Shown one piece after another: positions 34,124 through 49,774 of a stretch of DNA of 58,227 nt. The stretch is from a virus (lineage: Duplodnaviria > Caudoviricetes), in the IMG/VR virus record IMGVR_UViG_3300017716_002607, positions 1 to 58,227 of that record; one strand, written 5' to 3'. The first letter of the stretch is position 1; each line of letters opens with the position of its first letter. The translations under genes were made by a program, and so were the position numbers. Below the pieces are notes generated by a model. It worked only from the letters and a program-made list of their open reading frames with translations, did no database searches and had not been told where the DNA came from.

Positions 34124-34879
34124 TTACATATTAATGTAACTATCTTCATAATATTTATTATATAAATCAATATATATAACCTTTAATTTTTTAATTATTT
34201 TAGTAATTTGAGGAGTATCTACATCTATCATTTCACGAATATAAATGTATAGCGCCTTTTTATTAAATATATCCAATGATTCACATTTACGGAATAATTC
34301 AACGACAGCATCTGCTGTTTTAGCATCTATTTCTTTAGGAAACAATTTATGAAGATTTTTATCAACATATTTAGTGTATAACGACATAAATTCACTTACA
34401 CTATAGTCTTGTCCATAGTGGTCGTTTATTATTTCTTCTCGTATAGTTTTATCCTCTTCAATCTCTAATATGTCACCTTTATTTTGAAGTTTTTGGTAAT
34501 TTTTCTTATTTTTTAAAATTAAATAACGTTTAGCTATAGTTCCAAAATAGGAATAAGCCTTACCTTTAGCAGGCTTATATAATTTAAGTTTTTCAAGTAA
34601 AAAAGCAATTACTTCTTGTTGTACATCTTCAACAGACTCACCGTCAGTATAATAAAATTTAAAAGTGTGAATAATGTTTTGAGTTAATTTAAAAAATCCA
34701 TACTCAATACGCTCACGATAAACTCTATCTCTGAATTTCTGGTCTTGTGATCTAACGTACTCTACAATAGCATTTTGGGTGTCTTCTGTAAAATATGTAT
34801 GTGACGTTTTAGGTTTACGTTTACGAGGTTTGCCTGATTTGGTTAACTCAACTACTACTGGGCTATCTTCTAACTCCAT
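34124..34879 (-). CDS. RNA polymerase sigma-like factor (T4 gp55-like late sigma)
   Basis: YFTE...AIVEY and KAYSYFGTIAKRYLI region-2-like motif. Confidence 0.65.
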   Translation of the reverse strand: MELEDSPVVVELTKSGKPRKRKPKTSHTYFTEDTQNAIVEYVRSQDQKFRDRVYRERIEYGFFKLTQNIIHTFKFYYTDGESVEDVQQEVIAFLLEKLKLYKPAKGKAYSYFGTIAKRYLILKNKKNYQKLQNKGDILEIEEDKTIREEIINDHYGQDYSVSEFMSLYTKYVDKNLHKLFPKEIDAKTADAVVELFRKCESLDIFNKKALYIYIREMIDVDTPQITKIIKKLKVIYIDLYNKYYEDSYINM

Positions 34880-37207: not shown

Positions 37208-38071
37208 TTATTTTACAGTATAATTACCTGATTTTTTTAAGCGTTCTCTATTTTCTTTGTCTTTGCGTTTAAATTTAAGATCAGCAGCTATTCTACCTCG
37301 TCTATATTCTTTATCTATCTCAGTATCTTGATGTTGTTCTAAATCTTTTAACATTTCGCGATAAATACCGGATGTCATAATTACATCTCCAAAAGCATCA
37401 TGTGCCTGAGAATTATCTATTCCTAAAGAATTTGCTACTTTTCCTAAAGTACTCCCAACTAAATTACCAGAACCACTAGTTCCTAATTTATTTAATATTT
37501 CAATACTTCGTCCATTACCTTTTTCAGCTAACTGTTGTTGAAGAGGAATCCAAAAATATTGAGCTATTTTCATTACATCTAATGTAGTAGATTTTAATTT
37601 TTTATCTTTAGATACAGTATTAAATACTTCCATATCAAATGGAGTATTATAAATTAATAAAATAGGATTAGGAAATGAATTAACCCAATCAACAAAATCT
37701 GACAGTATGATTTGTTGTTCTCTTTTAATTGATGTATCATCAGCATAACGATTTATTTGTAATGCTTTACTTACACCAGATTCTGGGTCTTCTGCTGCTT
37801 TAGCAATTTTTGGTTCTAGTTTAGCTTTTTCATTAAATTGACCTATTTTATTTCCTTCACTATCAGTAGCAATAGCGGCTATTTGAGTAATTTGTAAAGG
37901 TCTATCAAAAGTAAATCCTGAAGTTTCAGTATCAAACCAAATAAATGTCTTATCTGAGTACGAATTAATTCTATTTAAAAGATCTTTAATTTGAGTAGTA
38001 TCAAATCTGGTTTCTTTTATACCAGCCAATTTTTGTAAACGCCTAGCTTCAGTTATGAATTGTTTTCTCAT
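37208..38071 (-). CDS. DEDDh 3'-5' exonuclease (DnaQ-like) with MRKQFITEA leader
   Basis: FDTETSG, YNTPFD, AHDAFGD; start moved to the leader Met at 38071. Confidence 0.85.
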   Translation of the reverse strand: MRKQFITEARRLQKLAGIKETRFDTTQIKDLLNRINSYSDKTFIWFDTETSGFTFDRPLQITQIAAIATDSEGNKIGQFNEKAKLEPKIAKAAEDPESGVSKALQINRYADDTSIKREQQIILSDFVDWVNSFPNPILLIYNTPFDMEVFNTVSKDKKLKSTTLDVMKIAQYFWIPLQQQLAEKGNGRSIEILNKLGTSGSGNLVGSTLGKVANSLGIDNSQAHDAFGDVIMTSGIYREMLKDLEQHQDTEIDKEYRRGRIAADLKFKRKDKENRERLKKSGNYTVK

Positions 38072-38111
38072 TCTATTTTTGATTAATCTAGGTATAAATA
38101 TATTAGTATTA

Positions 38112-38618
38112 CTAAATACTTGCATTATTATCGGAAATAACACCAGCAATTGTCTCCTCAGCATAAGATATGGTTACAGCAAATCCCTCTTTATTAACAT
38201 GAAACGGTTTAAGTTTCTTATGTATTAAAGACTCAATTTGTAAAGGCGCTCTACAGGCGAATGCGTTAACAATGTACCAAGGTGTTATAACACCTGTTGC
38301 CCCGTTAATCTCTCGGACTCTCTCCTGTGGCGTCCTATCCGTATATCCAATTTTCAACACACCAGGTTGGCCTTTATTCTCCAAAATATAAATGTATCCT
38401 TCATTAAATGACAAAGAAGCATTAAATTTATTATTCTTTATCCAATAATGTATATAATCATTGGTTGGATCATTAGGATCAGGCGTTAAAGTATAAGCAT
38501 CAGAGTAAAAACAATTTACTCCTTCGGGTTTAGGATAATAATCCACCTTAGCTTCTTCTAATGTTATGTGTTTAAATTCTCCCATACTATTAATCTCTCC
38601 AAGCTTGTTCCACATCAC
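38112..38618 (-). CDS. T5orf172-type GIY-YIG domain protein
   Basis: GYIYIL...KIGYT.RTPQERV...TGV..P...E..IH. Confidence 0.8.
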   Translation of the reverse strand: MMWNKLGEINSMGEFKHITLEEAKVDYYPKPEGVNCFYSDAYTLTPDPNDPTNDYIHYWIKNNKFNASLSFNEGYIYILENKGQPGVLKIGYTDRTPQERVREINGATGVITPWYIVNAFACRAPLQIESLIHKKLKPFHVNKEGFAVTISYAEETIAGVISDNNASI

Positions 38619-39576
38619 TCATAAATGTAGTTGGATCAGTATTACAAGCTACTATTCGTTCTTCCATTTGCATTGTAACTGGTTCTTCAATGTTAAATGC
38701 TTCATCGTACGTGATAGCTCTACGAACAGCTAATCCTAAACCACCTACGTTTTCTTGAACAGTTGGTTGATTTGGTTGTTCATAACTAGAAAGTTGCTTA
38801 TTTTTATAATCTTCTGGGAATAATTCCCAATTAGTTAATTTAGTATGAGTAAACTCATCGCGTATGATGCTCAGGATGTGAGAGGGAAGATTAGTATCCA
38901 TAGAATCTAAACGGATATCTTTAACATCCCAAAACGATGTTTCATACTCATAATCGGTATTAAGATTCTTAAATGCGGCTACTTTATCACCCGTGGAGCG
39001 ATTTATACAATAAATCACAATCCCACGTCTAGAATAACGAATAAAATATTCGGGATCATTCTTCATGGCGGTACACCATTTAGTAGAGGCACCATACTTT
39101 AGAGATGCTTCGAATGATAAAGGTTTTAAAACCAACCATTCATCCGTATCATGTAAGATTTGTGCTTGGGATTGTAATTCTTTACCCATTACTTTTATCT
39201 CTGCTAGATTTACTTGACTCTCCAATTCATCAAAATTCTTATACGTAGATATATCGTTTCGAGTAATTAATTTTCGCTCGTTATATTCGGCAAATTTAAG
39301 TAGATTTTTAATATTTTCTCTACCTGCTGATTCTAAGAAAACGTATACAAAGTGTAATTCATGTATAGATAAAGCATCTATTTTTTCCTGGGGTATTTCC
39401 CAATCTACTAATATCTCAATAACATCATTATGGTAAGTACGCGCGTTTTCTGCGTTTTTAAACAATGAAACTGCTAGTTCGACGTACTTGGGCTTATCAA
39501 GAAGCCAATGCATTATATCGATGGTTGATTTTCCGTAATAAGGATTGTGCTGTTTTAATTCTTCAATTTTATTCAT
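38590..39576 (-). CDS. hypothetical phage protein (YG..TKWC motif)
   Basis: 328 aa ORF. Confidence 0.75.
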   Translation of the reverse strand: MNKIEELKQHNPYYGKSTIDIMHWLLDKPKYVELAVSLFKNAENARTYHNDVIEILVDWEIPQEKIDALSIHELHFVYVFLESAGRENIKNLLKFAEYNERKLITRNDISTYKNFDELESQVNLAEIKVMGKELQSQAQILHDTDEWLVLKPLSFEASLKYGASTKWCTAMKNDPEYFIRYSRRGIVIYCINRSTGDKVAAFKNLNTDYEYETSFWDVKDIRLDSMDTNLPSHILSIIRDEFTHTKLTNWELFPEDYKNKQLSSYEQPNQPTVQENVGGLGLAVRRAITYDEAFNIEEPVTMQMEERIVACNTDPTTFMSDVEQAWRD

Positions 39577-39712
39577 TTTCTTTATCTTTAATTACTAAAT
39601 AAGCGGATTTATCTTCTAAATATTTTACTTCACCCGAATCAATAAGTGTCTGGGTTCCCTTGGGGTTTAGTTTACCTAATAACTCAATGGTTTTTTCCAT
39701 GTATATTATCAT
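39569..39712 (-). CDS. small hypothetical protein (47 aa)
   Basis: Manually translated MIIYMEKTIELLG...; follows promoter near 39731. Confidence 0.5.
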   Translation of the reverse strand: MIIYMEKTIELLGKLNPKGTQTLIDSGEVKYLEDKSAYLVIKDKENE

Positions 39713-39877
39713 AACTTTTTAATTTAAGTCTAAATATACGAATGTTTTTTCTTGTTTCCAAATTCTTGTATATACGTTTTGAAAGGGATAAAAGATCGTT
39801 AAAGGAAGAGATTTCGGGGTCTTGGATTTTGTATCGAATGGGATATAATGGATTTTATGGTATATTTGTATATACAT

Positions 39878-40135
39878 GGGGCGCGGGGCGAATTTTGTTG
39901 TCTTGTTGTGTAGCCGGGGCCTTCTATCGTTTTGTTAGCGCAGCGTCGATGGACCGCAATTACCGTGGGCCCACTTCGCCGTCGCAGCGCGCGCGCAGCG
40001 CTAGCGTATCGATAGTTTGAAAGAGGATGTTCTTTTTTTGTCACACGCCAGTCCAGACGTGGATCCAGACATTTGGATGTTCTTTTTGTCACACGCGCGC
40101 TAAGGATAACGAAGGCGACCTTTTGGCCGCCTTAT
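39878..40135. other. GC-rich noncoding island with palindromes and direct repeats
   Basis: GGGG runs, CGCGCGCG, GGATGTTC-Tn-GTCACACGC twice. Confidence 0.7.
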
Positions 40136-40164
40136 GTTGTTTTCTTAATATTTACCGTATATGT

Positions 40165-40302
40165 TTAATTTAACGTTGGATCAATTGATATTATACGTTT
40201 TACTAAGTTACTCAATGAGAATTCAATTAATGTAATAGGTCCTACTGTATATTCAAACCAACTGAATCCATCTTGCTCTATATGTTGTGTTATTGTACTC
40301 AT
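40165..40302 (-). CDS. small hypothetical protein (45 aa)
   Basis: Manually translated MSTITQHIEQDGFSWFEY... Confidence 0.5.
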   Translation of the reverse strand: MSTITQHIEQDGFSWFEYTVGPITLIEFSLSNLVKRIISIDPTLN

Positions 40303-40473
40303 TTATTTGGTAGTTATTTTATAATAATAAAGTGAACTTACCCCACATACCATCATTAAAACCCAATACATAGCAAATTGTTCTAATGTTTCAGAATAAT
40401 AAAACATACCTATTACACTTAATAACATTAAGGTAACTAATAGTATTTTAATTAAAATTTCTAATGTTTTCAT
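40303..40473 (-). CDS. small two-helix membrane protein (56 aa)
   Basis: Manually translated MKTLEILIKILLVTLMLLSVIGMF...; promoter at 40505. Confidence 0.6.
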   Translation of the reverse strand: MKTLEILIKILLVTLMLLSVIGMFYYSETLEQFAMYWVLMMVCGVSSLYYYKITTK

Positions 40474-40504
40474 TTTTAATTGTTTTTAATTGTTAAACTA
40501 TGCT

Positions 40505-40537
40505 ATAAAATTACAAACTTAACTTAACATAACCAAA
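40505..40537 (-). promoter_or_regulatory. early Bacteroidota-type promoter; copies near 39730, 41039, 41573, 41898, 42596, 43042, 43445, 44068, 44334, 44949, 45384, 45942, 46027, 46531, 48377, 49800, 50595, 51735, 54187, 56833
   Basis: Fixed-length ~33 nt TT(T/G)G...TAnnTTTA element upstream of ATGs; resembles the Bacteroidota -33/-7 consensus (TTTG/TAnnTTTG). Confidence 0.8.
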
Positions 40538-40591
40538 CTAAATATAAATTATTTTCAAACTATTTCATTATTTATATTATTTCTAAATTAT

Positions 40592-40996
40592 TTAATCTTC
40601 ATAATCCCAATCATCATCATTATAATCTTCTCCATACATCATTTTATTAATATCTCTTAATTCAAACATACTAAACTCATCTTTTTCAAACCCATCTTTA
40701 TCAAACATATCTCTAAAATAATCTTCAATACTATATTCCCAACAAATCATATTCAATTCTAATTCTATAACTACTTCACTTTCATTCCAATCACACATCT
40801 TTTTATATAAAATACCACTACTACAATTTAAATCTTCTAATACAATTTCTCTATCTTCACCTTTAAATTCCCAAAATTCATTACTAAACTCTACAAATCT
40901 AATTCTTTTATCTTCATTTAATTCATTTATATCATAATCTTCTAAATCTACTTTTAACATTACTTTAAACCAATCACTTAATAATACTTTTTTCAT
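40592..40996 (-). CDS. highly acidic protein encoded by a C-free coding strand (candidate DNA mimic)
   Basis: 134 aa, about 40 D/E versus 16 K/R; no A, P, T, H or Q; own promoter. Confidence 0.8.
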   Translation of the reverse strand: MKKVLLSDWFKVMLKVDLEDYDINELNEDKRIRFVEFSNEFWEFKGEDREIVLEDLNCSSGILYKKMCDWNESEVVIELELNMICWEYSIEDYFRDMFDKDGFEKDEFSMFELRDINKMMYGEDYNDDDWDYED

Positions 40997-41196
40997 AACA
41001 TTTAATTTTTTAATTAATAATTTATTTATTTTAACACTATAAAATTACAAAATATAAACAACATATCATAACATATTTACAATTATTTTATATAATATAT
41101 TAATTTATAATCATTCTAAATAACAATAAAGCCCCATATTAATTAAAATATGAGGCCTTAAAGCGTTAAAATAAAAGTGTTAATTAAAATATGTAA

Positions 41197-41379
41197 TTAT
41201 GAATTTGCTAGCTTAGTTATTCTGTCTAGCTCAGAATTAAATTCATCTTCAGCATCATATACCTTATATAATGTTCTGTTCCCTCTAATAAACTCCATAT
41301 GTGACCTTTCCCGGGGATCCATCACTACATCTACTGGTTTATTGTTTTCGTTTTTGTATCTGAATAGTAACTTATTCAT
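41197..41379 (-). CDS. hypothetical protein
   Basis: 60 aa ORF. Confidence 0.6.
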   Translation of the reverse strand: MNKLLFRYKNENNKPVDVVMDPRERSHMEFIRGNRTLYKVYDAEDEFNSELDRITKLANS

Positions 41380-41380
41380 T

Positions 41381-41548
41381 TTATTTAAGGGCGTTTAATT
41401 TGTCTATTGTATGTAAGGCATCTTCTTGATCGTTAACAGGTATCATTCGGTTTTCCCCTAACACGTACCATCCATCATAACGCTCTTCTGCTCTTAATTC
41501 GCCTGATAAATCAAATGTTTCTCCGTCTGTAAATTTTAATATACTCAT
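41381..41548 (-). CDS. small hypothetical protein (55 aa)
   Basis: Manually translated MSILKFTDGETFDLSGELR...; promoter at 41573. Confidence 0.65.
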   Translation of the reverse strand: MSILKFTDGETFDLSGELRAEERYDGWYVLGENRMIPVNDQEDALHTIDKLNALK

Positions 41549-41613
41549 TGTTTTGTGTTTTTAAATTATACTATAAAATTACGACCTATATTTCCAGTAA
41601 CCACATATAATGT

Positions 41614-41640
41614 AAAAAAAGACTCAATTAAGAGTCTTTT
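41614..41640 (-). terminator. repeated terminator AAAGACTC-AATTAA-GAGTCTTT (also 42637-42663, 43147-43171)
   Basis: Three identical hairpins with A-run on + strand between cassettes. Confidence 0.8.
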
Positions 41641-41643
41641 AAT

Positions 41644-41856
41644 TTATGAAGCCATATTCTCGACCCACACTTGATTATAATCTTCTACGTAATAAACACA
41701 AATATCTTTATAATCGTATCTTTGTCTAAAACTATCTTTTAAATAGTCGACAATATCGTTATCGATTTCGTTTGTGTTGTACTCTTTAACTTCACTGTTT
41801 TCTAATAAATTAAACTCGTTTAAGTTTTCGTTGATAAAATTTTCGATTTTTAACAT
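41644..41856 (-). CDS. small acidic protein
   Basis: 70 aa; own promoter and terminator. Confidence 0.7.
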   Translation of the reverse strand: MLKIENFINENLNEFNLLENSEVKEYNTNEIDNDIVDYLKDSFRQRYDYKDICVYYVEDYNQVWVENMAS

Positions 41857-41946
41857 AATGTTTTTGTTTTAATTGTTTTTATTATTTTAACTCTTGTATA
41901 AAGATACAAATAAAAGATAACGTAACAAAATAAAAACGTAATTACT

Positions 41947-42186
41947 TTAAATAAAATTAAATACTTCATTTAAACCTTCTTTATCATTTAATAAACCTTC
42001 TTTAGATGTTATTTCAAATAAACAATTACATTCTTCAATATCAACTAAAATACAATCATCTTCACTTAATATCTCATTTATCAATTCTACTTCATTTTCA
42101 GTTAATTGTTTATTGTAAATTTTCTTTACATTACCAATACTTGAATCATAAACAAAACCATAAACATTTTCTTTAAATACTAACAT
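41947..42186 (-). CDS. small acidic protein (no Ala/Pro)
   Basis: 79 aa ORF with A-rich leader. Confidence 0.7.
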   Translation of the reverse strand: MLVFKENVYGFVYDSSIGNVKKIYNKQLTENEVELINEILSEDDCILVDIEECNCLFEITSKEGLLNDKEGLNEVFNFI

Positions 42187-42227
42187 AACTTTTATTTTTA
42201 ATTATACTTAAATATACAAACTTTTAT

Positions 42228-42554
42228 TTAAAAAACAAATTCATTCTCTTTCTCAATTATTTCTAATTTAACTATTCTATAATTAATATGTTTTAATTGA
42301 ATTGAAAAATAACCACCACCATATTCTGAACCTTTAATATATTGTGTACAATTATAATTTCCAATATAGTTATTTTCTTTCAATTTTAGAAATGATTTCT
42401 CTTGTTTAAATATTTTTGTTTTACCACCTACAATTTCTCCTAACTTAAATTCAAAATCCCATAACTCACTAATATTATCTTTATAATAATTGTTTAATTC
42501 CTGAACACCAAATTCATTTAAACCTAAATTAATAACCTTAAATTGTACTTTCAT
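42228..42554 (-). CDS. hypothetical protein (no Ala/Pro)
   Basis: 108 aa; promoter at 42596. Confidence 0.7.
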   Translation of the reverse strand: MKVQFKVINLGLNEFGVQELNNYYKDNISELWDFEFKLGEIVGGKTKIFKQEKSFLKLKENNYIGNYNCTQYIKGSEYGGGYFSIQLKHINYRIVKLEIIEKENEFVF

Positions 42555-42690
42555 AACTTTTATCTTTTTAATTATTTATTTATTTTAACTCTTGTATAAA
42601 GATATAAACAAAATATAACATAACCAAATATAATATAAAAAAAGACTCAATTAAGAGTCTTTTAATTATTAATGTAATTGTTTTTAAATA

Positions 42691-42999
42691 TTAATTAACA
42701 AATAAATCAGTATCAGTTAAATTATACTTTAATTTAATTTCGTTATAAACATTATCACAATCGTTATTATTATTTACAGTATAATAATCGTTATTATTTA
42801 TAATAACCATACAGCTTAAATTGTTATAAACTATATTACTTAATATACTTAATAAACAACTACCATCACAATCGTTTAACTGTTGTTCACAACAATAAAC
42901 ATTATTAACTACATCGTCTATTTCACAATTAAATCCGTTAATGTTAAATTTATTAACTTCTGTTAAATTGTCTGTAAAACTCATTAATTTAATTACCAT
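42691..42999 (-). CDS. Asn/Cys-rich acidic protein (no Ala/Pro/Arg)
   Basis: 102 aa; own promoter and terminator. Confidence 0.65.
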   Translation of the reverse strand: MVIKLMSFTDNLTEVNKFNINGFNCEIDDVVNNVYCCEQQLNDCDGSCLLSILSNIVYNNLSCMVIINNNDYYTVNNNNDCDNVYNEIKLKYNLTDTDLFVN

Positions 43000-43175
43000 A
43001 ATTTTTTGTTTTTAATTATTAATATTTTTATTTTTAACGATATAAAGATATAAACATTATATAACGTAACAAAACATAATTATAATTATTTTATATAGTT
43101 TTATCATTTATAATTAATCCAAATAAACTTAGTCTTGGGTTAGAATAAAAAAGACTCAATTAAGAGTCTTTAAAT

Positions 43176-43406
43176 TTAATCAATATCTTGAATATTATTT
43201 TCTTCTTTACATTCAATCAAAACAACTTTTTCAAATATTTCTTCATCATTATCATCAAAACCAATAAACATTTCATGATCATCAGTTATCTCATCTTCAC
43301 CAAATTCCATTTTATACACCCAATCTGTGTGATCAACATACTCTAAAACTACAATCTGATCAGGATTACACTTACTTAACCTGTCAATTAATTCTTTTAC
43401 TGTCAT
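43176..43406 (-). CDS. small acidic protein (MTVKELI..L N-terminus; no Ala)
   Basis: 76 aa; own promoter and terminator. Confidence 0.75.
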   Translation of the reverse strand: MTVKELIDRLSKCNPDQIVVLEYVDHTDWVYKMEFGEDEITDDHEMFIGFDDNDEEIFEKVVLIECKEENNIQDID

Positions 43407-43483
43407 AACTTTTGTTTTTAATTATTAATTATTTTAACTTTGATATAAAATTACGAAACATAATTATAACAACCAAATTTATT

Positions 43484-43702
43484 TTAATCGTTTTTATCGT
43501 TATTTGGTTTAGTGGCCGCATTATAATTCCTCCATTCCAGCCAGAATCCAATAGCCACTATAATGTTCATTCCGAATGAGGCTAGTATCTCATGGATGTC
43601 CTCATACACATTAGTTGTCAAGTGGACGTGCCCCACCATCCAAAATGGAATAGACAGATTGCCTGCTACCCATGTAATCAAAAATATAATAAACTTCTTC
43701 AT
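43484..43702 (-). CDS. small membrane protein
   Basis: Two hydrophobic segments. Confidence 0.65.
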   Translation of the reverse strand: MKKFIIFLITWVAGNLSIPFWMVGHVHLTTNVYEDIHEILASFGMNIIVAIGFWLEWRNYNAATKPNNDKND

Positions 43703-43713
43703 GATGATAAATA

Positions 43714-43740
43714 GAAAAAACCCATCATTTCTGATGGGTT
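43714..43740 (-). terminator. intrinsic terminator
   Basis: aacccatca-tttc-tgatgggtt with A-run on + strand. Confidence 0.8.
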
Positions 43741-43777
43741 AATTCACTAATTAAAAACAATAAATAATGAGAAATCT

Positions 43778-44038
43778 TTATGCTTGACCTACTACACCAC
43801 CAAATGCTGGTGTTTGTGGTTCGTCTTGAGGTTCTTCTTCTTGGTTTTGACTCATTTCATATTCAATTAGCATCATCATAGCCATTTTTAAAACCCTGTT
43901 TACTTCTTCTGAATGTGTAGCTGCATTAGCTATTGTTTCTGCTAAATTTATAGCACCACCTTCAATTTTGATACTTACTTCTTCACCTAGTACTTCAATA
44001 CTAAAAAGACAATTGTTGTTTTTTGTTTCTTCTGACAT
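43778..44038 (-). CDS. small acidic protein
   Basis: 86 aa; own promoter. Confidence 0.7.
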   Translation of the reverse strand: MSEETKNNNCLFSIEVLGEEVSIKIEGGAINLAETIANAATHSEEVNRVLKMAMMMLIEYEMSQNQEEEPQDEPQTPAFGGVVGQA

Positions 44039-44108
44039 AATAAAAATATTTAATTGTTAAACTTTGATATAAAAGTATGAATAATATTTTAGGTAACCAA
44101 ATAAAGAT

Positions 44109-44130
44109 AAAAAAAGCGCCGAAACGCTTT
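44109..44130 (-). terminator. terminator AAAGCG-CCGAA(A/G)-CGCTTT (second copy about 44989-45011)
   Basis: Near-identical hairpins with A-runs. Confidence 0.7.
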
Positions 44131-44132
44131 AA

Positions 44133-44303
44133 TTAACTTAAACAACCATCTACGTAGGCGTAAAATTCATCGTATGATTTAAAACCTTCAATATTAAATC
44201 TCTCAGTAACATTATTTATTACTTTTTGTCTTACATTTTGTTTACAACTATTGTCGTCTAAAATGTTTTTTAATTCTTCTAATAATACATCTAATTCTAA
44301 CAT
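44133..44303 (-). CDS. small hypothetical protein (56 aa)
   Basis: Manually translated MLELDVLLEELKNILDD...; promoter at 44334 and terminator. Confidence 0.65.
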   Translation of the reverse strand: MLELDVLLEELKNILDDNSCKQNVRQKVINNVTERFNIEGFKSYDEFYAYVDGCLS

Positions 44304-44367
44304 AACTTTTATTTTTAATTGTTAAACTTTGATATAAAATTATGAAACATAACTATAACAACCAAAT

Positions 44368-44928
44368 CTATCTACAAAAAAGACGATTGTAGTTGTACTT
44401 AGCTACTGGATTAATGTCTGCTATTATGCTGTATGTGCCACTAGTCTGTTCAAACAAAAGACTGGTGTCTCTGGTGTCCTGAAGCTTTTCCCTAAGTATG
44501 TTAACAAAACCGTGGTTCGATTCGTCCACTATATATTGGGGTGTACCAGGCAATCCACAATAAGCAGCCTCACCCGTCTCAGAGATAAACATGCCGGTAT
44601 AAAAACCCTTCAGCATGTGTCTATTAACAAACTGATCTGCGTTGCACCAAATAAAAATACTATTGTCTTTCTGGCTTAGTGCCTCCACCATACCAGTTCC
44701 AATCACATAACTAGCAAAAGGGCTATTAGTAGGGAACTGACCTACGGCAAATAATCCACTTGGGCTCCCATGCCCCATCATCATCACTTGATCGTGTGTC
44801 TGGATTGCCTCCTGGATCTGGTTCTGGGGCCAGCTGTCAGTTACTAGAGTGACATTATCTAGGCCGGCATAAATTGGACTCAAAAAATTAGTTGAGGCAT
44901 CATGGGGGTGTATTACTAGTGTTTTCAT
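44368..44928 (-). CDS. putative caspase/CHAT-fold cysteine peptidase
   Basis: Hydrophobic-MGHGS and FIWCNA motifs matching a His-Gly/Cys dyad. Confidence 0.55.
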   Translation of the reverse strand: MKTLVIHPHDASTNFLSPIYAGLDNVTLVTDSWPQNQIQEAIQTHDQVMMMGHGSPSGLFAVGQFPTNSPFASYVIGTGMVEALSQKDNSIFIWCNADQFVNRHMLKGFYTGMFISETGEAAYCGLPGTPQYIVDESNHGFVNILREKLQDTRDTSLLFEQTSGTYSIIADINPVAKYNYNRLFCR

Positions 44929-45015
44929 TTTTTTAATTTAAATTTGGTATAAAGGTATGAAAAATTTCTTGGGTATCCTAGTAAAGACAAAAAAAAGCGC
45001 CGAAGCGCTTTAATT

Positions 45016-45342
45016 TTATTCTTCTGGGTCTGGTTCTCCTAAAGGCATCAAATATTCTTCTAGTGTGTCACGAATAAAATCTATATCAAAATCTATACTT
45101 TCTATATAAATCTCATTACCACTTAACTCAAATTCAACTGATCTTCTATCTATAGCATCATCACTTTTATGACTAATCTCACTTAATGCTTTGTCTAATG
45201 CATCACTAATGTCTGACACTGTAATGGATTTACCTGTTAAATCATACATTTCAACCATTTCAATTAAACGAACAACGTCGTCTTTGCTAAAAATAGAACT
45301 CTCAGAATTCAATACACGGTCTAATACTTCTTGTTTTTTCAT
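45016..45342 (-). CDS. acidic hypothetical protein
   Basis: 108 aa; own promoter and terminator. Confidence 0.75.
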   Translation of the reverse strand: MKKQEVLDRVLNSESSIFSKDDVVRLIEMVEMYDLTGKSITVSDISDALDKALSEISHKSDDAIDRRSVEFELSGNEIYIESIDFDIDFIRDTLEEYLMPLGEPDPEE

Positions 45343-45389
45343 AACCTTAATTTTTTAATTGTTTTTATTATTTTAACTCTGCTATAAAA

Positions 45390-45545
45390 TTACGACACAA
45401 AAATCTGGTAACCAAAGATAAATGAAGAGTCTTTACGACTCTTGTTTTTATGTTTATCCTTACGGGTGTATGTCTTTTTTGTCTTGTGGATCAGGAGCCT
45501 AGATGCTGCCCAGCGCTCTTGAAGTGTGATTTGGATCGTCTTCAT
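45390..45545 (-). CDS. ArfA-like basic peptide (51 aa)
   Basis: Manually translated ...KTKKTYTRKDKHKNKSRKDSSFIFGYQIFVS*; internal hairpin. Confidence 0.5.
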   Translation of the reverse strand: MKTIQITLQERWAASRLLIHKTKKTYTRKDKHKNKSRKDSSFIFGYQIFVS

Positions 45546-45664
45546 AATCATAATGTTTAATGTCTTCCGACATACATACTAAAAAAATAGTGTTCCCTAT
45601 TTCTGGATCTATGGGGATCCCCTGAACCCAGAGGAATTGCTCCCACTGGGCCAGATGGTCCAAC

Positions 45665-45916
45665 TCATTCATTTAGATCTTTTCTAGTACCAACACCTAA
45701 ACCCTCATACTGTAAAAGTGAATTACAGATGTATCTTTGGATCTGGGCAATCGATTTAAGATTCTCTATGTTGTTTAGGATTGTTTTTTTATCATCGTCG
45801 TTAATATTCTTTTCATTAACGAATTCGGTGATAAACGTTTTAGCTTTAGTTGCATCGGTCATTTTAAATACTTGCTCTGCAATTTGCTCGAAAATGGATT
45901 TAATTTGTACTCTCAT
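45665..45916 (-). CDS. hypothetical protein
   Basis: 83 aa; promoter at 45942. Confidence 0.7.
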   Translation of the reverse strand: MRVQIKSIFEQIAEQVFKMTDATKAKTFITEFVNEKNINDDDKKTILNNIENLKSIAQIQRYICNSLLQYEGLGVGTRKDLNE

Positions 45917-46101
45917 AACTTTATTATTTTAATTTAACATCGTAAAGATACAAACAAAAAAACCAATACCCAAACAAAAAACAAAAAATGTTGTAACGTT
46001 TTGAAGAAAAAAAAAACGGACCCCCCATAAAGGTACGAACAAAAAAACTAATAACCTACTTGGATATTAGAAATAGTTATCCCTAAAACGTACGACGGAA
46101 G

Positions 46102-46133
46102 AAAAAAAAGACCCAACATTACTGTCGGGTCTC
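46102..46133 (-). terminator. probable terminator
   Basis: agaccc...gggtct stem with A-run on + strand. Confidence 0.6.
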
Positions 46134-46154
46134 TTCTCGTTTAACAATTAAAAA

Positions 46155-46487
46155 TTACGCAACGACCATCTTCGGACGGCCCCTTTGTATTGTCTCACCA
46201 GCTGTTTTTCTGGCTTCCCATGCAGCTAGTCTTTGCTGTCTAGCACTTGTTAGATTCGGTTTGCGTCCTTTTTGTATCGGACCATTCTCTAACAACATAG
46301 CTCTAGTAGCTAATCTTTGTTGTCTAGCACTTGCTGGATTGATTTTACGTCCACGAGCTTTGTGATCTTCTATCACCACTGTTTTGTGAATTAAAGCAAT
46401 TAATGCTTCTGTTTTCATCTGATGAGCTGGTCTTTCTGTTTTGATACCTAACTCTTTTACTTTTGCTAATACTTCTGTACGCGTCAT
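46155..46487 (-). CDS. basic AT-hook-like DNA-binding protein
   Basis: RGRK, KGRKP, RGRPK and duplicated SARQQRLA. Confidence 0.65.
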   Translation of the reverse strand: MTRTEVLAKVKELGIKTERPAHQMKTEALIALIHKTVVIEDHKARGRKINPASARQQRLATRAMLLENGPIQKGRKPNLTSARQQRLAAWEARKTAGETIQRGRPKMVVA

Positions 46488-46794
46488 AACCTTGATTTTT
46501 AAATTAATTATTTATGTTTTTAACTCTGGCATAAAATTAATATCTAAACCTCACGCAACCAAATCTCTCCACAAAAAAAAGAAAAAAACTTTCGTCGTCG
46601 TACGTTTTAGTTATTCCACCACATAAACGATATACCAAAAAAACCTAACGCTAATTGGATGACATGCACCTCGTTATCGTTATACGCTTCGTCGTCGTTC
46701 GGAACATAATATAAACCAAATGCCAATCCTTGAATCCAAAAAGGTACAATCATATATTTTAAATTTTTATTTATACCAATGTACAAAAAAATTC

Positions 46795-46992
46795 TTAGTT
46801 ATCCCAATCTTTAACAAAAAAGAAATAAAATAAGAACAAAAGAAATATTGGCCAGAAAAAAATTGTTATAACGACGTCTTTATTAGTTAAAGGAGTTCCG
46901 TCGTCGTACTTAACAAAATAATTATTCATTAATATAACCAAAGCACCAACAATGGCGCCAATAAGCATATAAATGTTAATGTAATACATCAT
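46795..46992 (-). CDS. small membrane protein
   Basis: Start placed at MMYYIN; two hydrophobic helices, FWP motif. Confidence 0.55.
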   Translation of the reverse strand: MMYYINIYMLIGAIVGALVILMNNYFVKYDDGTPLTNKDVVITIFFWPIFLLFLFYFFFVKDWDN

Positions 46993-47029
46993 AGTAGTTA
47001 TGTTATGTTTCGTATATACGTTTTGAAGT

Positions 47030-47056
47030 GGGGAAACGGGGCGTGTCGGGGCGGGG
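47030..47056 (+). other. G-quadruplex-forming motif
   Basis: GGGG-AAAC-GGGG-CGTGTC-GGGG-C-GGGG. Confidence 0.75.
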
Positions 47057-47358
47057 ATCTTTTCCCCTGCCACAAAACACCATCACACATTGCTCCATTG
47101 TATTCCATATGTTAAGTACAAAAAAATGCAGCAACAAAAAAAAATATCGTTATGTTTTCCACCCTTAACCCTTGTTTTCCATCCTCACCTATTCCTTTAA
47201 GCAACAAAAAAATCGCGATTATTTGCGCAAAAAAACGCGTAATTTTGCATTACCTCCCCATAATCACATAATGCCGTGGTAAAAAAACAATGCGTTTAAA
47301 TGCGACATTTCATACCCGAAGCACCCAGCTCCTATTATTCAGTAATCGCCCTTTCGCC

Positions 47359-47433
47359 CGTACGTTATTATTCTATTTCGTCGTACGTTTCGTTTTTCTC
47401 GTCGTACGTTCTGCTCTTTCCGTCGTACGTTTT
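47359..47433. repeat. iteron-like CGTCGTACGTT repeats with 21-bp period
   Basis: Copies at 47379, 47400, 47421; partial copy at 47359. Confidence 0.85.
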
Positions 47434-47445
47434 ATTTTAGCTGGA

Positions 47446-47664
47446 TTATGTATTTGGTGCTTTGTTTTTAAATTGTTCAAACCATTCTTCTAATGTTACC
47501 TTCTTTCCAGCTAACAAATCTTCTGTATGTTTATAAAGAATATCTAATACTTCCTCCTCACTATAACTTATTTTTTGTTGCCATTTAGCACCTTCAATAA
47601 AAGCATCTTCATTATAAGGTTGTTTAGCCCAATAATTTTCAGCAACTTCTTCAAGTGTTTCCAT
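47446..47664 (-). CDS. hypothetical protein (AF.EGAKWQ...YSEEEV motif)
   Basis: Start placed at METLEE. Confidence 0.7.
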   Translation of the reverse strand: METLEEVAENYWAKQPYNEDAFIEGAKWQQKISYSEEEVLDILYKHTEDLLAGKKVTLEEWFEQFKNKAPNT

Positions 47665-47678
47665 AATCTTATTTGTTT

Positions 47679-48044
47679 TTATCTTATTGTTAACCAATTT
47701 CCACCTTTACTATAAACATAACCATACGCCTCACTTAAACGATTTTTAAATTGTTCAATTGAAATATCTGTTCTCGCCTCATTCTTGTCCTCACCTCTAT
47801 CTCTATGATAAGCCACTGTTATACCTTCTTTTGGATTATCAAAAGTATGTTCATCCATAGTTGCTACCTGTTCTCCCAAAATACTAATATCACCTAAATT
47901 AAGTAACATTCTTACTTTTTGAGTACTCAAATAATGCTCTTTTAACGTTGCTCCTACACCTTCTGTATAACCGTCCCAATGACAGTAAATTGATGTTATT
48001 GATCCGTTTTCGTTTTCGATTCCTATTCTACTTGGTGTTGCCAT
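47679..48044 (-). CDS. hypothetical phage protein (IYCHWDGY motif)
   Basis: MATPSRIG...YCHWDGY. Confidence 0.75.
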   Translation of the reverse strand: MATPSRIGIENENGSITSIYCHWDGYTEGVGATLKEHYLSTQKVRMLLNLGDISILGEQVATMDEHTFDNPKEGITVAYHRDRGEDKNEARTDISIEQFKNRLSEAYGYVYSKGGNWLTIR

Positions 48045-48053
48045 AACTTTTAT

Positions 48054-48350
48054 TTATCTACTTGTTACTGATTCAATTAATGATGTTCCTGAGTTAATCA
48101 TCTTGATGGCTTCGTCCCATCCTTCTTCGTCTGCTGCCCATTCAATCTCATGTACTTGATATTTGAACTGCCAATTTGATAGTGAAAATCCGTTACTACT
48201 CATTTTAAAGTCGCCTTCACCATTTTTCTTAAACTTCAAATACCCTACATTATCACACATACATGATATTGTTTTGAATATTACTTCTCTTGCTCCTCCA
48301 CTAATAGATAATTTAGGTGAGTTTGCTCTTAATTCTAAATACTTGTCCAT
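48054..48350 (-). CDS. hypothetical protein
   Basis: 98 aa; promoter at 48377. Confidence 0.7.
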   Translation of the reverse strand: MDKYLELRANSPKLSISGGAREVIFKTISCMCDNVGYLKFKKNGEGDFKMSSNGFSLSNWQFKYQVHEIEWAADEEGWDEAIKMINSGTSLIESVTSR

Positions 48351-48415
48351 AACTTTTATTTGTTTTAAATTATGCTATAAAATTACGAATAATAATCCTG
48401 TAAGCCAACCTACTT

Positions 48416-48604
48416 TTACCTTATTTTTTTCCACCATATTCGTTTCAACTTAATGCTATTGTCGTGTTTAAATCTACCATAATACTTGTATACCACAATG
48501 TGAGTGTATTTTTTTATCTCCCACTTATCCCAATCCACTAGAGTATCTTCAATTACGATTGTATAACCAATCCAAAATGCTATGTTGTATAATAATCGTT
48601 TCAT
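48416..48604 (-). CDS. hypothetical protein
   Basis: 62 aa ORF. Confidence 0.5.
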   Translation of the reverse strand: MKRLLYNIAFWIGYTIVIEDTLVDWDKWEIKKYTHIVVYKYYGRFKHDNSIKLKRIWWKKIR

Positions 48605-48664
48605 ATTCTTGTATATACGTATGTTTGTATTGATGTGTGGTACTGCAAGCTTTCTTGTAATTTT

Positions 48665-49774
48665 TTATTCATAATCTCTTATCGCTATTACTTTTGGAAA
48701 TCTTAAAGAACCATCTACTGTTTTTTCAAAGTATTTAACTGTTGCTTGTTTACCTATTAATGTGTCTTTGATTTGAAATAATTCTTCTAAATATTCCATC
48801 GTTCCATTTATAGTACAATCCACTTCTACATTATTAACATTTACTTTTAATGTTGCTACTTTACCACTAAATTTACCTATACCTTCGGCATAACCAATTA
48901 TTGTAAACTCTTCATCAAAGAATGTTTTATGTTTTAATAAACCATTTGAGCGTTTATTTTCATAAGGTGTGTTTGGATCTCTTAACATTTGGCCTTCAAA
49001 ACCTTGTTCAATATATTCTTGTAATTTGAAATTAATTTGTTCAAATGAAATTACATTAGTAGTATCAACTATCTTATAATAAAGAGTTGATATATCGTGT
49101 GTAAGAAATAAATCTAATAATTTACCTCGTCTTGAAGTGTATATTAAATCTTCACCTTCATAAACGTCATACATCCAATATTCAATATATTGAGCAGATA
49201 AATCTAAATCGGCTTGTGTTGGTTTTGTTTTTCTAACACATGATATAATTGTGTTAAAGTCTACTTCTGTATTTGAAGTATATAATTCACCATCTAATAC
49301 TAAATCAGGATGTTCTTCAAATACATGTTTTAACCCTTCAAATATGTGAGGAGCAGATATAATTTCCTTTCCTGTTCGTGTCCACATACCATCTGATTTA
49401 ACTATACATCTTACTCCGTCTAGTTTTGGTTGTGATAAAATTGGAAACTGTACTTTATCCTTACGTTTGTCATAGTCTTGAGCTAGCATTGGTTGAAAGA
49501 ATACTTTCTTATCACAATCATTTATGTCTTCCCAATAACCTAAATCTTTACGTTTAGTATGAAGTGCTTGTGCTTCGAATAATGCTTGTTGTTCCGCTGT
49601 TGTAGCGTTCTTTTTACCTACATTTTTAGGAGTACATTCGGTCCAATCACCTGTAAACATTTTCATATTTACAAATCCTGTAGTTGTTCTAAATTTGTTT
49701 CCTTCAACTTCAATTTGCCATTGGTTGATGTGTTCTTTACTATTTGAACGTTTGTATAAAATTGGTAATATCAT
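48665..49774 (-). CDS. ATP-dependent DNA ligase
   Basis: PMLA, QPKLDGVR, LDGELY, EGQMLR, KRS..LLKHK, SLRFP. Confidence 0.95.
   Translation of the reverse strand: MILPILYKRSNSKEHINQWQIEVEGNKFRTTTGFVNMKMFTGDWTECTPKNVGKKNATTAEQQALFEAQALHTKRKDLGYWEDINDCDKKVFFQPMLAQDYDKRKDKVQFPILSQPKLDGVRCIVKSDGMWTRTGKEIISAPHIFEGLKHVFEEHPDLVLDGELYTSNTEVDFNTIISCVRKTKPTQADLDLSAQYIEYWMYDVYEGEDLIYTSRRGKLLDLFLTHDISTLYYKIVDTTNVISFEQINFKLQEYIEQGFEGQMLRDPNTPYENKRSNGLLKHKTFFDEEFTIIGYAEGIGKFSGKVATLKVNVNNVEVDCTINGTMEYLEELFQIKDTLIGKQATVKYFEKTVDGSLRFPKVIAIRDYE

What the first reader, a model, noticed from the sequence alone, without database searches (positions are those of the whole stretch)
40503..41130. A whole transcription unit written in three letters: 628 nt with zero G on the + strand
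Seen: between G40502 and G41131 there is no G against about 117 C (hand count). The stretch covers the promoter, the 134-codon ORF and both flanks. The mRNA therefore has no C, and the protein lacks all residues whose codons require C (A, P, T, H, Q) while being strongly acidic (about 40 D/E versus 16 K/R), reminiscent of DNA mimics such as T7 Ocr. Logical consequences: no palindromic site containing G/C can exist, the template strand has no G to modify, and transcription needs no CTP. Inference: an anti-restriction gene immune to nearly all palindromic restriction sites, or one evading G-directed ADP-ribosylation, C deamination, CTP depletion or ddhCTP. Extension into untranscribed upstream DNA favours DNA-level selection.
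Basis: partly seen in the sequence, partly recalled or inferred. Interest (0 to 1): 0.95.

Follow-up and report, generated by a model that had tools for sequence, protein, structure and literature searches.

The report
Phage early genes written without cytosine
A freshwater phage and its many relatives carry small early genes whose messenger RNA contains no cytosine at all, a conserved and selected feature that I found described nowhere and that probably lets these genes be expressed when cytosine is unavailable or under attack.

Summary
Window 40503-41130 has 0 G, 117 C, 250 A and 261 T on the + strand. The next longest G-free run is 146 nt, and the chance expectation is about 1e-36.

It is not an artefact.
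- The 134-aa ORF (40592-40996, - strand) has 120 homologs at 45-94% identity; 112 of 120 have no A, P, T, H or Q.
- In 13 of 21 independently assembled related loci the gene has no C in the sense strand; 19 of 21 have 3 or fewer.
- Over 16 loci, NNT:NNC codons are 863:2, against 18.6% NNC in background genes.

Next to it in relatives, at least five unrelated small acidic ORF families are also fully C-free, in runs up to 1534 nt.

In distant relatives the C-free zone starts just after a conserved C in the promoter box and ends at or soon after the stop codon. The constraint therefore follows the transcribed and translated part. It is context-free and looks all-or-none rather than graded.

The protein folds confidently (pLDDT 90.9) but matches no known fold or family.

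My best reading, which is inferred, is an immediate-early gene class made independent of C. Its expression would then survive CTP shortage, a poisoned CTP pool or C-directed RNA attack. The mechanism is unproven.

The parts
40503..41130 (+). 628-nt stretch with no G on the + strand, which means no C in the sense (- strand) of the gene it holds
   Evidence: T 261, A 250, C 117, G 0; flanked by G40502 and G41131
40592..40996 (-). 134-aa ORF built from a 15-letter amino-acid alphabet (no A, P, T, H, Q). Acidic, pI 4.1. Confidently predicted all-helical fold with no known relatives of known function
   Evidence: ORF, codons, charge; 120 homologs; pLDDT 90.9; no family or fold match
41028..41051 (-). 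Promoter-like box TTTGTAATTTTATAG followed by TGTTAAAAT (reads like an extended -10), about 30-40 nt before the ATG. Other early genes of the window carry the same box with C at its third position (..CGTAATTTTATA.)
   Evidence: six - strand copies with CGTAATTTTATA at 41571, 43443, 45382, 48375, 49798, 50593; two copies with TTTG at 41037 and 40503; the same block stands upstream of the homologs in L005, L006, L008. Function inferred, not shown
40503..40517 (-). Second exact copy of the promoter-like box, in front of the next small gene (40303-40473). The first sense-strand C comes immediately after it
40518..40591 (-). C-free spacer after the stop codon. It holds an element conserved between cassettes (..AATAATGAAATAGTTTGAAAATA..)
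   Evidence: the same spacer is seen in L005, L006 (two copies), L008 (two copies) and L010
41052..41126 (-). C-free upstream spacer, similar to the inter-cassette spacer. It lies between the upstream terminator and the promoter box
41127..41160 (-). Terminator-like hairpin (14 pairs, 4 G-C, T-rich tail) ending the two C-normal genes upstream. The C-free zone starts inside its 3' end
40112..40133 (-). First terminator-like hairpin downstream of the focal gene, outside the C-free zone, after two C-containing small ORFs
   Evidence: (40303-40473 C 7.6%, 40165-40302 C 13%)
41947..43406 (-). Four neighbouring small ORFs with C-poor sense strands (2.5, 4.3, 5.5 and 4.8% C, against 10-20% in other genes). 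The depletion lies mostly in amino-acid content, not in NNY codon choice
   Evidence: (NNC 29 of 200 over five island genes without the focal one)
41197..41548 (-). Two small genes with normal C (12.6 and 13.7%), bracketed by terminator-like hairpins, interrupting the C-poor region

Best explanation
The window is about a third of a roughly 160-kb freshwater myophage, distantly related to Flavobacterium phage immuto. In its early, small-gene region it carries a gene cassette under strong, long-lasting selection to have no cytosine in the part that is transcribed and translated: from the -10 or start-site region to the stop codon.

The same rule holds for this gene family in most relatives and for several unrelated small acidic genes beside it. 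Each gene has its own copy of a repeated promoter and spacer module. This part is shown.

The constraint has four properties. It acts on the nucleotide and not on the protein. It is strand-specific. It is indifferent to sequence context. It is close to all-or-none.

From these I infer that every C in the message (every G in the template) carries a large risk to expression at the time these genes are needed. The genes would then form a class whose synthesis never requires pairing CTP with a template G and whose mRNA offers no C to attack.

The most likely purpose is guaranteed immediate-early expression of host-takeover or anti-defence proteins while C-dependent steps are compromised. My candidates in order are:
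1. The CTP pool is depleted or poisoned by a chain terminator such as viperin-made ddhCTP.
2. A C-requiring endoribonuclease or cytidine-modifying enzyme acts, from the host or as the phage's own shut-off.

The purpose and the agent are inferred, not shown. What the 134-aa protein does is unknown.
For: Selection on the nucleotide:
- 112 of 120 homologs (45-94% identity) lack A, P, T, H and Q.
- In 16 loci, NNT:NNC is 863:2. Leu uses only TTA/TTG, Arg only AGA/AGG, Ser only AGT. The same window's 27 long genes have 18.6% NNC.
- NNC and NNT codons are read by the same tRNAs (established knowledge), so tRNA supply cannot be the cause.

Not a need of the protein: an index-free profile search found 25 hits. 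13 have at most one of the five residues and 11 have five or more.

A class, not one gene:
- C-free runs reach 1534 nt (L008), 1236 nt (L006) and at least 824 nt (L010).
- They cover other ORF families with 0 C: L008 2908-3327 and L002 1205-1618; L008 3456-3707; L004 6619-6846 and L010 558-803; L001 5713-5910.
- Two families have C-poor copies inside such regions and C-normal copies elsewhere.

Transcript-shaped boundaries: for 30 distinct near-C-free ORFs, the nearest upstream C is a median 56 nt before the ATG (n=24), often the conserved C of the promoter box. The nearest downstream C is a median 24.5 nt after the stop, with a minimum of 0.

Context-free: 272 residual Cs in C-poor regions sit in the same trinucleotide contexts as 7680 background Cs (ACA 18.8% against 16.8%).

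All-or-none: early genes outside the region do not avoid C (NNC 357 of 1314 = 27%, against 17.6% in late genes).

RNA damage matters to this phage: it encodes an RNA ligase, a metallophosphoesterase and a cyclic-phosphate-processing cREC_REC domain.
Against: - No agent was identified. Nothing in the window or the loci points to viperin, a CTP-consuming enzyme or a C-specific RNase.
- Host defences are patchy among strains, while the trait is nearly universal in the family. That fits an agent intrinsic to the phage or to all its hosts better.
- Early expression is inferred only from position, gene size and a shared promoter-like box. The sigma-70 scan was not above chance (16 against 13±4), and one metatranscriptome's contigs did not cover the gene.
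- In several relatives a C follows the stop codon within 0-15 nt. A total absence of CTP would therefore stall the polymerase before the ribosome could finish. This favours a probabilistic per-C hazard over complete CTP lack.
- A few family members keep 1-4 Cs, and two loci have 13-15.
- The four C-poor neighbours in the window still use NNC codons (29 of 200). They may be C-poor only through their amino-acid make-up.
- The nearest cultured relative replaces all G in its DNA by fdPreQ1, which offers a template-side alternative.
Confidence: 0.45

Rival explanations
1. Template-side cause. The injected DNA of this phage group has every G replaced by a bulky 7-deazaguanine (fdPreQ1 in immuto). 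A G-free template strand is then the only fully canonical template for the naive host RNA polymerase, so the first genes are purged of template G.
For: - Immuto, the nearest cultured relative, encodes FolE, QueD, QueE, QueC, QueF, DpdA and a formyltransferase.
- Its virion DNA has no detectable dG, and fdPreQ1 stands at 345,000 per 10^6 nt (passages of PMC10516641).
- Immuto has exactly one near-C-free gene (5 C in 357 nt, record 68330-68686), in the region syntenic with the window's island.
- The idea explains the strand specificity, the restriction to transcribed DNA, the context independence and a selective agent that is always present.
Against: - Dpd/Que genes were not found in the window or in the four records that hold L001-L004. 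All five are 7-38% fragments, so this is inconclusive.
- Campylobacter phage CP220, reported as completely modified by a DpdA3 enzyme (that the base is dADG is my recall), has no C-free or G-free gene. Its longest runs are 78 and 111 nt in 177,534 nt.
- All other immuto and window genes hold normal C, and early genes use more NNC than late ones.
- In vitro, small 7-deazapurine groups were fully tolerated by bacterial RNA polymerases. Where inhibition occurred it was attributed to initiation, not elongation (abstract of PMC4838386).
Confidence: 0.12
2. Protection of, or a mutational footprint on, the non-template DNA strand. A single-strand cytosine deaminase, or prolonged single-strandedness in heavily transcribed or R-loop DNA, removes or penalises every C on the displaced sense strand.
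For: - The effect is strand-specific and limited to the transcribed region.
- Lost C is replaced mainly by T: sense T is 39.8% in the zone against 31.1% window-wide.
- A GC-rich repeat-bearing non-coding element that could be an origin lies 400 nt downstream.
Against: - C is absent from first and second codon positions in a protein under clear purifying selection (21 invariant columns in 24 sequences). Mutation pressure alone does not normally achieve this.
- The state has been stable over divergence down to about 45% identity.
- Residual Cs show no deaminase-like context bias.
- Other early genes with the same promoter box keep normal C.
Confidence: 0.1
3. Escape from Rho-dependent termination, RNA structure, or both. 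Rho loads on C-rich unstructured RNA, so a C-free message cannot be terminated by Rho. It also cannot form G-C helices, which keeps it open for translation.
For: - Rho's preference for YC-rich rut sites is established knowledge.
- Rho is universal, which matches the near-universal trait.
- The focal mRNA has the weakest predicted structure of 22 similar-sized genes (-11.8 against a typical -18 kcal/mol per 100 nt).
- No terminator-like hairpin lies inside the zone.
Against: - Rho needs many Cs over about 70-80 nt (established knowledge). Removing the last few Cs at the cost of five amino acids should give no extra benefit, yet 112 of 120 proteins have none.
- Residual Cs show no depletion of YC contexts (5' neighbour T or C 42% against 43%).
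- The structural effect is modest.
Confidence: 0.1
4. One reading: an anti-restriction gene kept free of G/C-containing palindromes so that restriction enzymes cannot cut it.
For: - A strand without G cannot hold a palindrome with a G:C pair (logic).
- The protein is acidic like DNA mimics.
Against: - Cutting anywhere else in the genome still kills the phage, and the rest of the window has normal G and C.
- Avoiding sites needs only the loss of specific words, not of every C at synonymous positions.
- No fold or family link to Ocr or ArdA was seen.
Confidence: 0.03
5. Artefact (assembly error, chemical deamination or bisulfite-like conversion), or a by-product of the protein's amino-acid composition.
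For: Nothing was found that favours it.
Against: - 21 loci from separate assemblies show the feature or a close version of it.
- Contigs of three runs from three other studies carry the gene without G variants among the rows shown.
- Conversion artefacts would not stop at gene borders or spare the sense-strand G.
- Synonymous codons and non-coding flanks are affected.
- Relatives of the protein with normal composition exist.
Confidence: 0.01

Closest known systems
G-less cassette (synthetic transcription templates that can be transcribed without GTP; recalled, not from a call)
   Same: A transcribed stretch from which one nucleotide is excluded, so RNA synthesis does not need one NTP and the transcript resists a base-specific RNase.
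   Different: That is a laboratory construct of a few hundred non-coding bases. Here it is natural, mirrors it (C-less), encodes folded proteins with a 15-letter amino-acid alphabet, and is conserved across more than 100 lineages.
ACA-less or MazF-resistant mRNAs, and motif avoidance in general (restriction-site avoidance, CpG or APOBEC-motif depletion in viruses); recalled
   Same: The target of a host nuclease or editing enzyme is purged from viral sequence by synonymous and non-synonymous change.
   Different: Those purge a word of 2-6 nt and are statistical. Here a whole nucleotide is purged completely, on one strand, in a bounded set of genes. Residual Cs show no ACA or other context bias.
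T7 Ocr / ArdA-type DNA-mimic anti-restriction proteins
   Same: A small, very acidic (pI 4.1, 40 D/E) protein from a phage small-gene early region.
   Different: No sequence, family or fold similarity was detected. No evidence of dimeric DNA-like shape. Function untested.
Promoter-early stem-loop (PeSL) cassettes of the hyperplastic regions of T4-type phages (recalled)
   Same: Small early ORFs, each preceded by a repeated promoter module that can drive cassette shuffling. The repeated 135-nt promoter and spacer module, joints between module copies in other samples and a chimeric protein P0144 fit this.
   Different: The modules here have no G-C stem-loop and are themselves C-free. Nucleotide exclusion is, as far as I recall, not described for PeSL cassettes.
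7-deazaguanine (Dpd) DNA hypermodification in phages: immuto fdPreQ1, CP220 (PMC10516641, passages read)
   Same: Same phage neighbourhood. The nearest cultured relative replaces all G, and the feature here is a template strand without G.
   Different: No Dpd gene is seen in the fragments at hand. CP220 lacks C-free genes. The modification concerns the whole genome, while the C-free state concerns a few genes.

Membership tests
DNA-mimic anti-restriction proteins (Ocr/ArdA type) | Strong net negative surface charge | tested here: met
   40 D/E against 16 K/R, pI 4.1. This is overall composition only; no surface was calculated.
DNA-mimic anti-restriction proteins (Ocr/ArdA type) | Sequence or fold similarity to a known mimic | tested here: inconclusive
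   No Pfam, PHROGs or PADLOC hit. The PDB profile search gave only E 0.77 to tryptophanase. Foldseek PDB and BFVD best E>2. VIA-align wide best Z 4.3, with no mimic among the 50 rows shown.
DNA-mimic anti-restriction proteins (Ocr/ArdA type) | Binds and inhibits type I restriction-modification enzymes | not testable with these tools
   Needs a bench assay.
Self-contained transcription unit (promoter to terminator) entirely without G | Promoter inside the G-free stretch | tested here: inconclusive
   The repeated box and an extended -10-like TGTTAAAAT lie at 41051-41028, shared with other early genes and with relatives. The generic sigma-70 scan was not above chance. No transcription start data.
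Self-contained transcription unit (promoter to terminator) entirely without G | Terminator inside the G-free stretch | tested here: not met
   No terminator-like site lies within 40503-41126. The nearest downstream one on the - strand is 40133-40112, beyond two C-containing ORFs.
Motif-specific RNase evasion (MazF-type ACA or UAC avoidance) | Depletion is specific to the recognition word | tested here: not met
   All C is gone from the focal gene. In C-poor regions ACA makes up 18.8% of residual C contexts, against 16.8% in the background.
Phage with complete 7-deazaguanine replacement (DpdA3 pathway) | DpdA and preQ0/preQ1 synthesis genes in the genome | tested here: inconclusive
   Immuto DpdA and QueC proteins found no match in the window or in the records of L001-L004. 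These are 7-38% fragments. The Pfam TGT model misses even immuto's annotated DpdA.
Immediate-early gene class | Transcribed in the first minutes from host-type promoters | not testable with these tools
   Inferred only from position among small ORFs between the DNA-metabolism and structural modules and from a shared promoter-like box. The RNA contigs laid did not cover the gene.

The most novel reading that the evidence does not exclude
A previously unrecognised way of encoding genes. A class of phage immediate-early cassettes is written in a three-letter nucleotide alphabet, which leaves 15 amino acids. Their transcription needs no CTP and their mRNA has no cytidine. This makes them immune to a cytidine-directed block of gene expression: CTP depletion, ddhCTP-type chain terminators, C-specific RNases or deaminases, or the phage's own C-directed host shut-off. 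The block and the C-free genes together would gate the first stage of infection.
Probability: 0.45. Interest if true: 0.95.

Novelty: categorically new. Interest (0 to 1): 0.88.

Why it matters
Complete exclusion of one nucleotide from functional protein-coding genes has not been described, as far as four full-text searches could show. Here it is conserved over deep divergence and shared by unrelated neighbouring genes.

If it is an adaptation, three things follow:
- It reveals a strong cytidine-directed (or template-guanine-directed) pressure in phage infection that nobody has measured.
- It gives a simple sequence signature, single-nucleotide-free sense strands, for finding the first-acting and probably anti-defence genes in uncultured phages.
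- It provides natural examples of well-folded proteins built from 15 amino acids.

It is testable now. The cultured Flavobacterium phage immuto carries one near-C-free gene.

It also offers a design principle for expression cassettes that work without CTP or resist C-specific nucleases.

Tried and rejected
- tRNA-depletion explanation: rejected. NNC codons are purged although they share tRNAs with the NNT codons that are used, and the non-coding flanks are C-free too.
- Protein-level explanation: rejected. Relatives with 5-19 A/P/T/H/Q residues exist.
- Graded 'CTP economy' or 'modified template' pressure on all early genes: not seen. Early genes use more NNC (27%) than late genes (17.6%).
- Function of the protein: no hit in Pfam, PHROGs, PADLOC, the PDB sequence profile, Foldseek against PDB and BFVD, VIA-align wide or the ESM Atlas. 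Pfam on nine other C-free or near-C-free ORFs and on immuto gene 128 gave only two sub-threshold hits, DUF1374 and PoNi_C.
- tblastn of the protein against 50,697 phage records: no match.
- Rfam on the window (gathering threshold) and on 39500-41300 (E up to 1): no match. tRNA scan: none.
- A 20-nt promoter-module pattern scanned in viral contigs found two unrelated loci (L039, L040) with no C-free ORF of interest.
- RNA run X24: its contigs lay on 41662-41901, 39944-39979 and 43002-43035 only, not on the focal gene. These are contigs of one run, so this says nothing on expression.
- Dpd/Que searches in fragments were empty and are not informative.
- Supplements of PMC10516641 were not opened. 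They may list further phages with DpdA3/DpdN that bear on the modified-template rival.
Full report
OBSERVATION.
Window 40503-41130 (628 nt) contains T 261, A 250, C 117 and no G, bounded by G at 40502 and 41131. The window as a whole has 13.5% G. The next longest G-free run is 146 nt, and the longest runs lacking A, C or T are 62, 56 and 27 nt. Under an iid model the probability is 3.5e-40 and the expected number of such runs in the window is about 3e-36.

The stretch holds a 134-codon ORF on the - strand (40592-40996). Its sense strand therefore has no C. Its protein has no A, P, T, H or Q and has 40 D/E against 16 K/R, with pI 4.1.

CONTEXT.
- All sizeable ORFs lie on the - strand.
- The window encodes baseplate wedge proteins, an ATP-dependent DNA ligase, an RNA ligase, a metallophosphoesterase, a cREC_REC cyclic-phosphate-processing domain, DUF932, a T5orf172 protein, a DnaQ-type exonuclease, a glucosaminidase and a sigma-70 region-2 protein.
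- The only nucleotide match in 50,697 phage records is 80% identity over about 380 nt to the four Flavobacterium phage immuto records.
- The genome held for this window is the window itself, estimated 36% complete.
- Runs that share its sequence are mostly labelled freshwater or lake metagenomes.
- The focal gene sits in a region of small ORFs between the DNA and RNA-metabolism genes and the structural genes.

NOT AN ARTEFACT, AND CONSERVED.
A word-indexed search found 120 homologs at 45-94% identity, and 112 of the 120 contain none of A, P, T, H, Q. The eight exceptions have 1, 1, 1, 4, 5, 7, 8 and 30 such residues. The one with 30 is a 171-aa protein that matches over only 29% of the query.

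Twenty-one related loci were fetched from viral and metagenome contigs. Within the matched coding part, the number of sense-strand Cs is:
- 0 in 13 loci;
- 1 in 4 loci;
- 3 in 2 loci;
- 13 and 15 in the two relaxed loci, L016 and L012.
L006 and L007 share the same gene sequence, and L017 and L018 likewise.

Around the gene the C-free run is 441-654 nt in several loci, 1236 nt in L006/L007, at least 824 nt in L010 (cut by the contig end) and 1534 nt in L008.

Contigs of three runs from three other studies carry the gene at 88-99% likeness. The ten variant positions listed inside the zone are C>T, T>C or A>T on the + strand and never to G, although only 40 of 201 variant rows were printed.

THE CONSTRAINT IS ON THE NUCLEOTIDE.
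- Over the 16 full-length loci of the family (2051 codons), two-fold NNY codons are 863 NNT against 2 NNC.
- Gly and Val boxes never end in C (0 of 191).
- Leu is only TTA/TTG (218), Arg only AGA/AGG (61), Ser only AGT (82).
- In 27 long genes of the same window, NNC is 601 of 3229 (18.6%), and CTN, CGN and TCN codons are common.

NNC and NNT are read by the same tRNAs, so tRNA supply or anticodon nucleases cannot explain this.

An index-free profile search over 1.84 billion representatives gave 25 hits. Thirteen have at most one of the five residues, one has two, and eleven have five or more. One of the eleven is a 944-aa protein that is probably unrelated, and some others have frameshift-like tails. 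The fold therefore tolerates these residues, and their absence is imposed from the nucleic-acid side.

A CLASS OF GENES, NOT ONE GENE.
In relatives the ORFs next to the focal family are unrelated to it and are also C-free:
- L008 2908-3327 and L002 1205-1618 (139 and 137 aa);
- L008 3456-3707 (83 aa);
- L004 6619-6846 and L010 558-803 (75 and 81 aa);
- L001 5713-5910 (65 aa);
- L006 12-497 (161 aa, 1 C);
- several more at or below 1% C.

All are small, and those printed are rich in D and E. None has a Pfam family above threshold.

Two families have C-poor members inside such regions and C-normal members elsewhere: 0.010 against 0.106, and 0.048 against 0.121 and 0.140.

Immuto, the only cultured relative, has exactly one such gene: immuto26A_128, 118 aa, acidic, 5 C in 357 nt. 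It lies in the syntenic small-gene region, and the rest of its 160,410 nt has no C-free run above 117 nt.

In the window itself four neighbours (41947-43406) have 2.5-5.5% C against 10-20% elsewhere. Together with gene 41644-41856 they still use NNC codons (29 of 200), so their depletion is mainly in amino-acid content and may be of a different nature.

WHERE THE ZONE STARTS AND ENDS.
Upstream of the focal ATG lies the box TTTGTAATTTTATAG followed by TGTTAAAAT. Six other - strand genes of the early region carry the box as ..CGTAATTTTATA... The two copies inside the zone have T in place of that C.

In the window and its close relatives (L005, L006, L008), cassettes are separated by a conserved C-free module of about 135 nt made of spacer, box and leader.

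In distant relatives (L015, L017, L020; and with other promoter versions L002, L004, L013, L014, L001) the promoter keeps a conserved C. The C-free zone starts immediately after it, and a C follows the stop codon within 0-25 nt.

For 30 distinct near-C-free ORFs the nearest upstream C is a median 56 nt before the ATG (n=24, minimum 13). The nearest downstream C is a median 24.5 nt after the stop (n=30, minimum 0).

The conserved constraint thus covers the -10 or start-site region, the leader and the ORF, which is the shape of a functional message.

The zone contains no terminator-like hairpin. Such hairpins lie at 41160-41127, which ends two C-normal inserted genes, and at 40133-40112. The '628 nt' is therefore a cassette plus spacers rather than a complete promoter-to-terminator unit.

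NATURE OF THE PRESSURE.
- Context-free. Residual Cs in C-poor regions (272 in eight regions) have the same neighbours as 7680 background Cs: ACA 18.8 against 16.8%, and a pyrimidine 5' neighbour in 42 against 43%. This argues against a word-specific nuclease such as MazF and gives no sign of Rho's YC preference.
- Close to all-or-none. Most family members have 0 C, a few have 1-4 and a few are fully relaxed.
- Not graded across early genes. Early genes outside the region do not avoid C at synonymous sites (NNC 27.2%, against 17.6% in late genes). A mild general pressure on early transcription, such as nucleotide economy or slow reading of a modified template, is therefore not visible. Membership of a special class is.
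- Modest effect on RNA structure. The focal mRNA has the weakest predicted structure of 22 comparable genes, but only moderately so: -11.8 against about -18 kcal/mol per 100 nt.

BEST EXPLANATION (INFERENCE).
Each C in the message, or each G in the template, must carry a substantial hazard to expression when these genes act. The genes are a class designed to be made without ever using C.

I rank the candidate agents as follows:
1. A depleted or poisoned CTP pool, such as ddhCTP from viperin-type enzymes (recalled from the literature; no call).
2. A C-requiring RNase or cytidine-modifying enzyme, from the host or as the phage's own shut-off. The phage's RNA-repair genes show that RNA damage is part of its life.

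A total lack of CTP is unlikely, because in several relatives a C follows the stop codon so closely that a stalled polymerase would block termination of translation. A probabilistic per-C hazard fits better.

Against any host-defence agent stands the near universality of the trait, which suggests something constant. I give this whole reading 0.45.

RIVALS.
- Modified template. Immuto replaces all dG by fdPreQ1, so a G-free template strand would be the only canonical one in injected DNA. Three results count against it. CP220, also reported as completely modified by a DpdA3 enzyme, has no C-free gene. Other early genes keep normal C. Published in vitro work places the effect of major-groove modification at initiation and finds small 7-deazapurine groups harmless (abstract only). 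Whether the window's phage modifies G is unknown. Confidence 0.12.
- Deaminase attack on, or mutational decay of, the displaced strand: 0.10.
- Rho or RNA-structure avoidance: 0.10.
- Restriction-site avoidance: 0.03.
- Artefact or protein composition: 0.01.

THE PROTEIN.
AlphaFold2 with a 71-sequence alignment gives a confident all-helical model: mean pLDDT 90.9, pTM 0.85. It ends in an acidic, aromatic tail. No sequence family, solved structure or predicted viral structure resembles it. A role as a DNA mimic or other inhibitor is possible but untested.

NOVELTY.
Four full-text searches for natural cytosine-free or C-less genes or mRNAs found nothing relevant. One methods paper states in its abstract that long natural stretches lacking one nucleotide are rare (PMC6526412, listing). 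I therefore rate the phenomenon as new in kind, with the mechanism open.

Noticed in passing
window 39860-40110 (- strand): A GC-rich non-coding element of about 250 nt in a 30% GC phage, just after the terminator at 40133-40112. It holds an imperfect direct repeat (GTGTGACAAAAA..GAACATCC, twice) and GCGC-rich runs. No Rfam match at E up to 1. It is conserved in contigs of three other runs. It could be an origin, a regulatory RNA or a protein-binding site.
   Followed up: partly
window 54231-58009 (- strand): RNA-repair-like gene set: RNA ligase (56882-58009), cREC_REC cyclic-phosphate-processing receiver domain (55823-56230) and calcineurin-like phosphoesterase (54231-54956), with DUF932 at 50920-51711. 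This suggests the phage repairs cleaved RNA, such as tRNA cut by host nucleases.
   Followed up: partly
window 43450-58227 against 1-34100: Early-region genes use more C-ending two-fold codons (357 of 1314, 27%) than structural genes (600 of 3416, 17.6%). This is the opposite of what a general early C-avoidance would give.
   Followed up: yes
window 44368-44928 (- strand): A 186-aa ORF with 43% GC in a 30% GC genome and no family in Pfam, PHROGs or PADLOC. It is probably a recent foreign acquisition.
   Followed up: partly
window 40514-43436, 40578-41029 and other joints: Contigs from other samples join copies of the promoter and spacer module, skipping or replacing the focal ORF or the whole C-poor region (for example 40592>41029 and 40514>43436). 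This fits cassette gain, loss or exchange at the repeated modules. Short 31-nt sides make some joints uncertain.
   Followed up: no
P0144 (62 aa): A chimeric protein. Its N-terminal half resembles the second C-free family (L008 2908-3327) and its C-terminal end resembles the focal family. This hints at recombination between C-free cassettes.
   Followed up: no
L024 22931-23287 (immuto record 68330-68686): The cultured Flavobacterium phage immuto has one acidic 118-aa gene with only 5 C in 357 nt. This gives a tractable system for experiments.
   Followed up: yes
window 34124-34879 (- strand): A 251-aa protein with a sigma-70 region-2 match next to the structural genes, probably a phage late sigma factor.
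   Followed up: no
window 38112-38618 and 37208-38164 (- strand): The T5orf172 ORF (with a GTG start as listed) overlaps the following exonuclease ORF by about 50 nt and the preceding ORF by about 30 nt. The start codons are uncertain.
   Followed up: no
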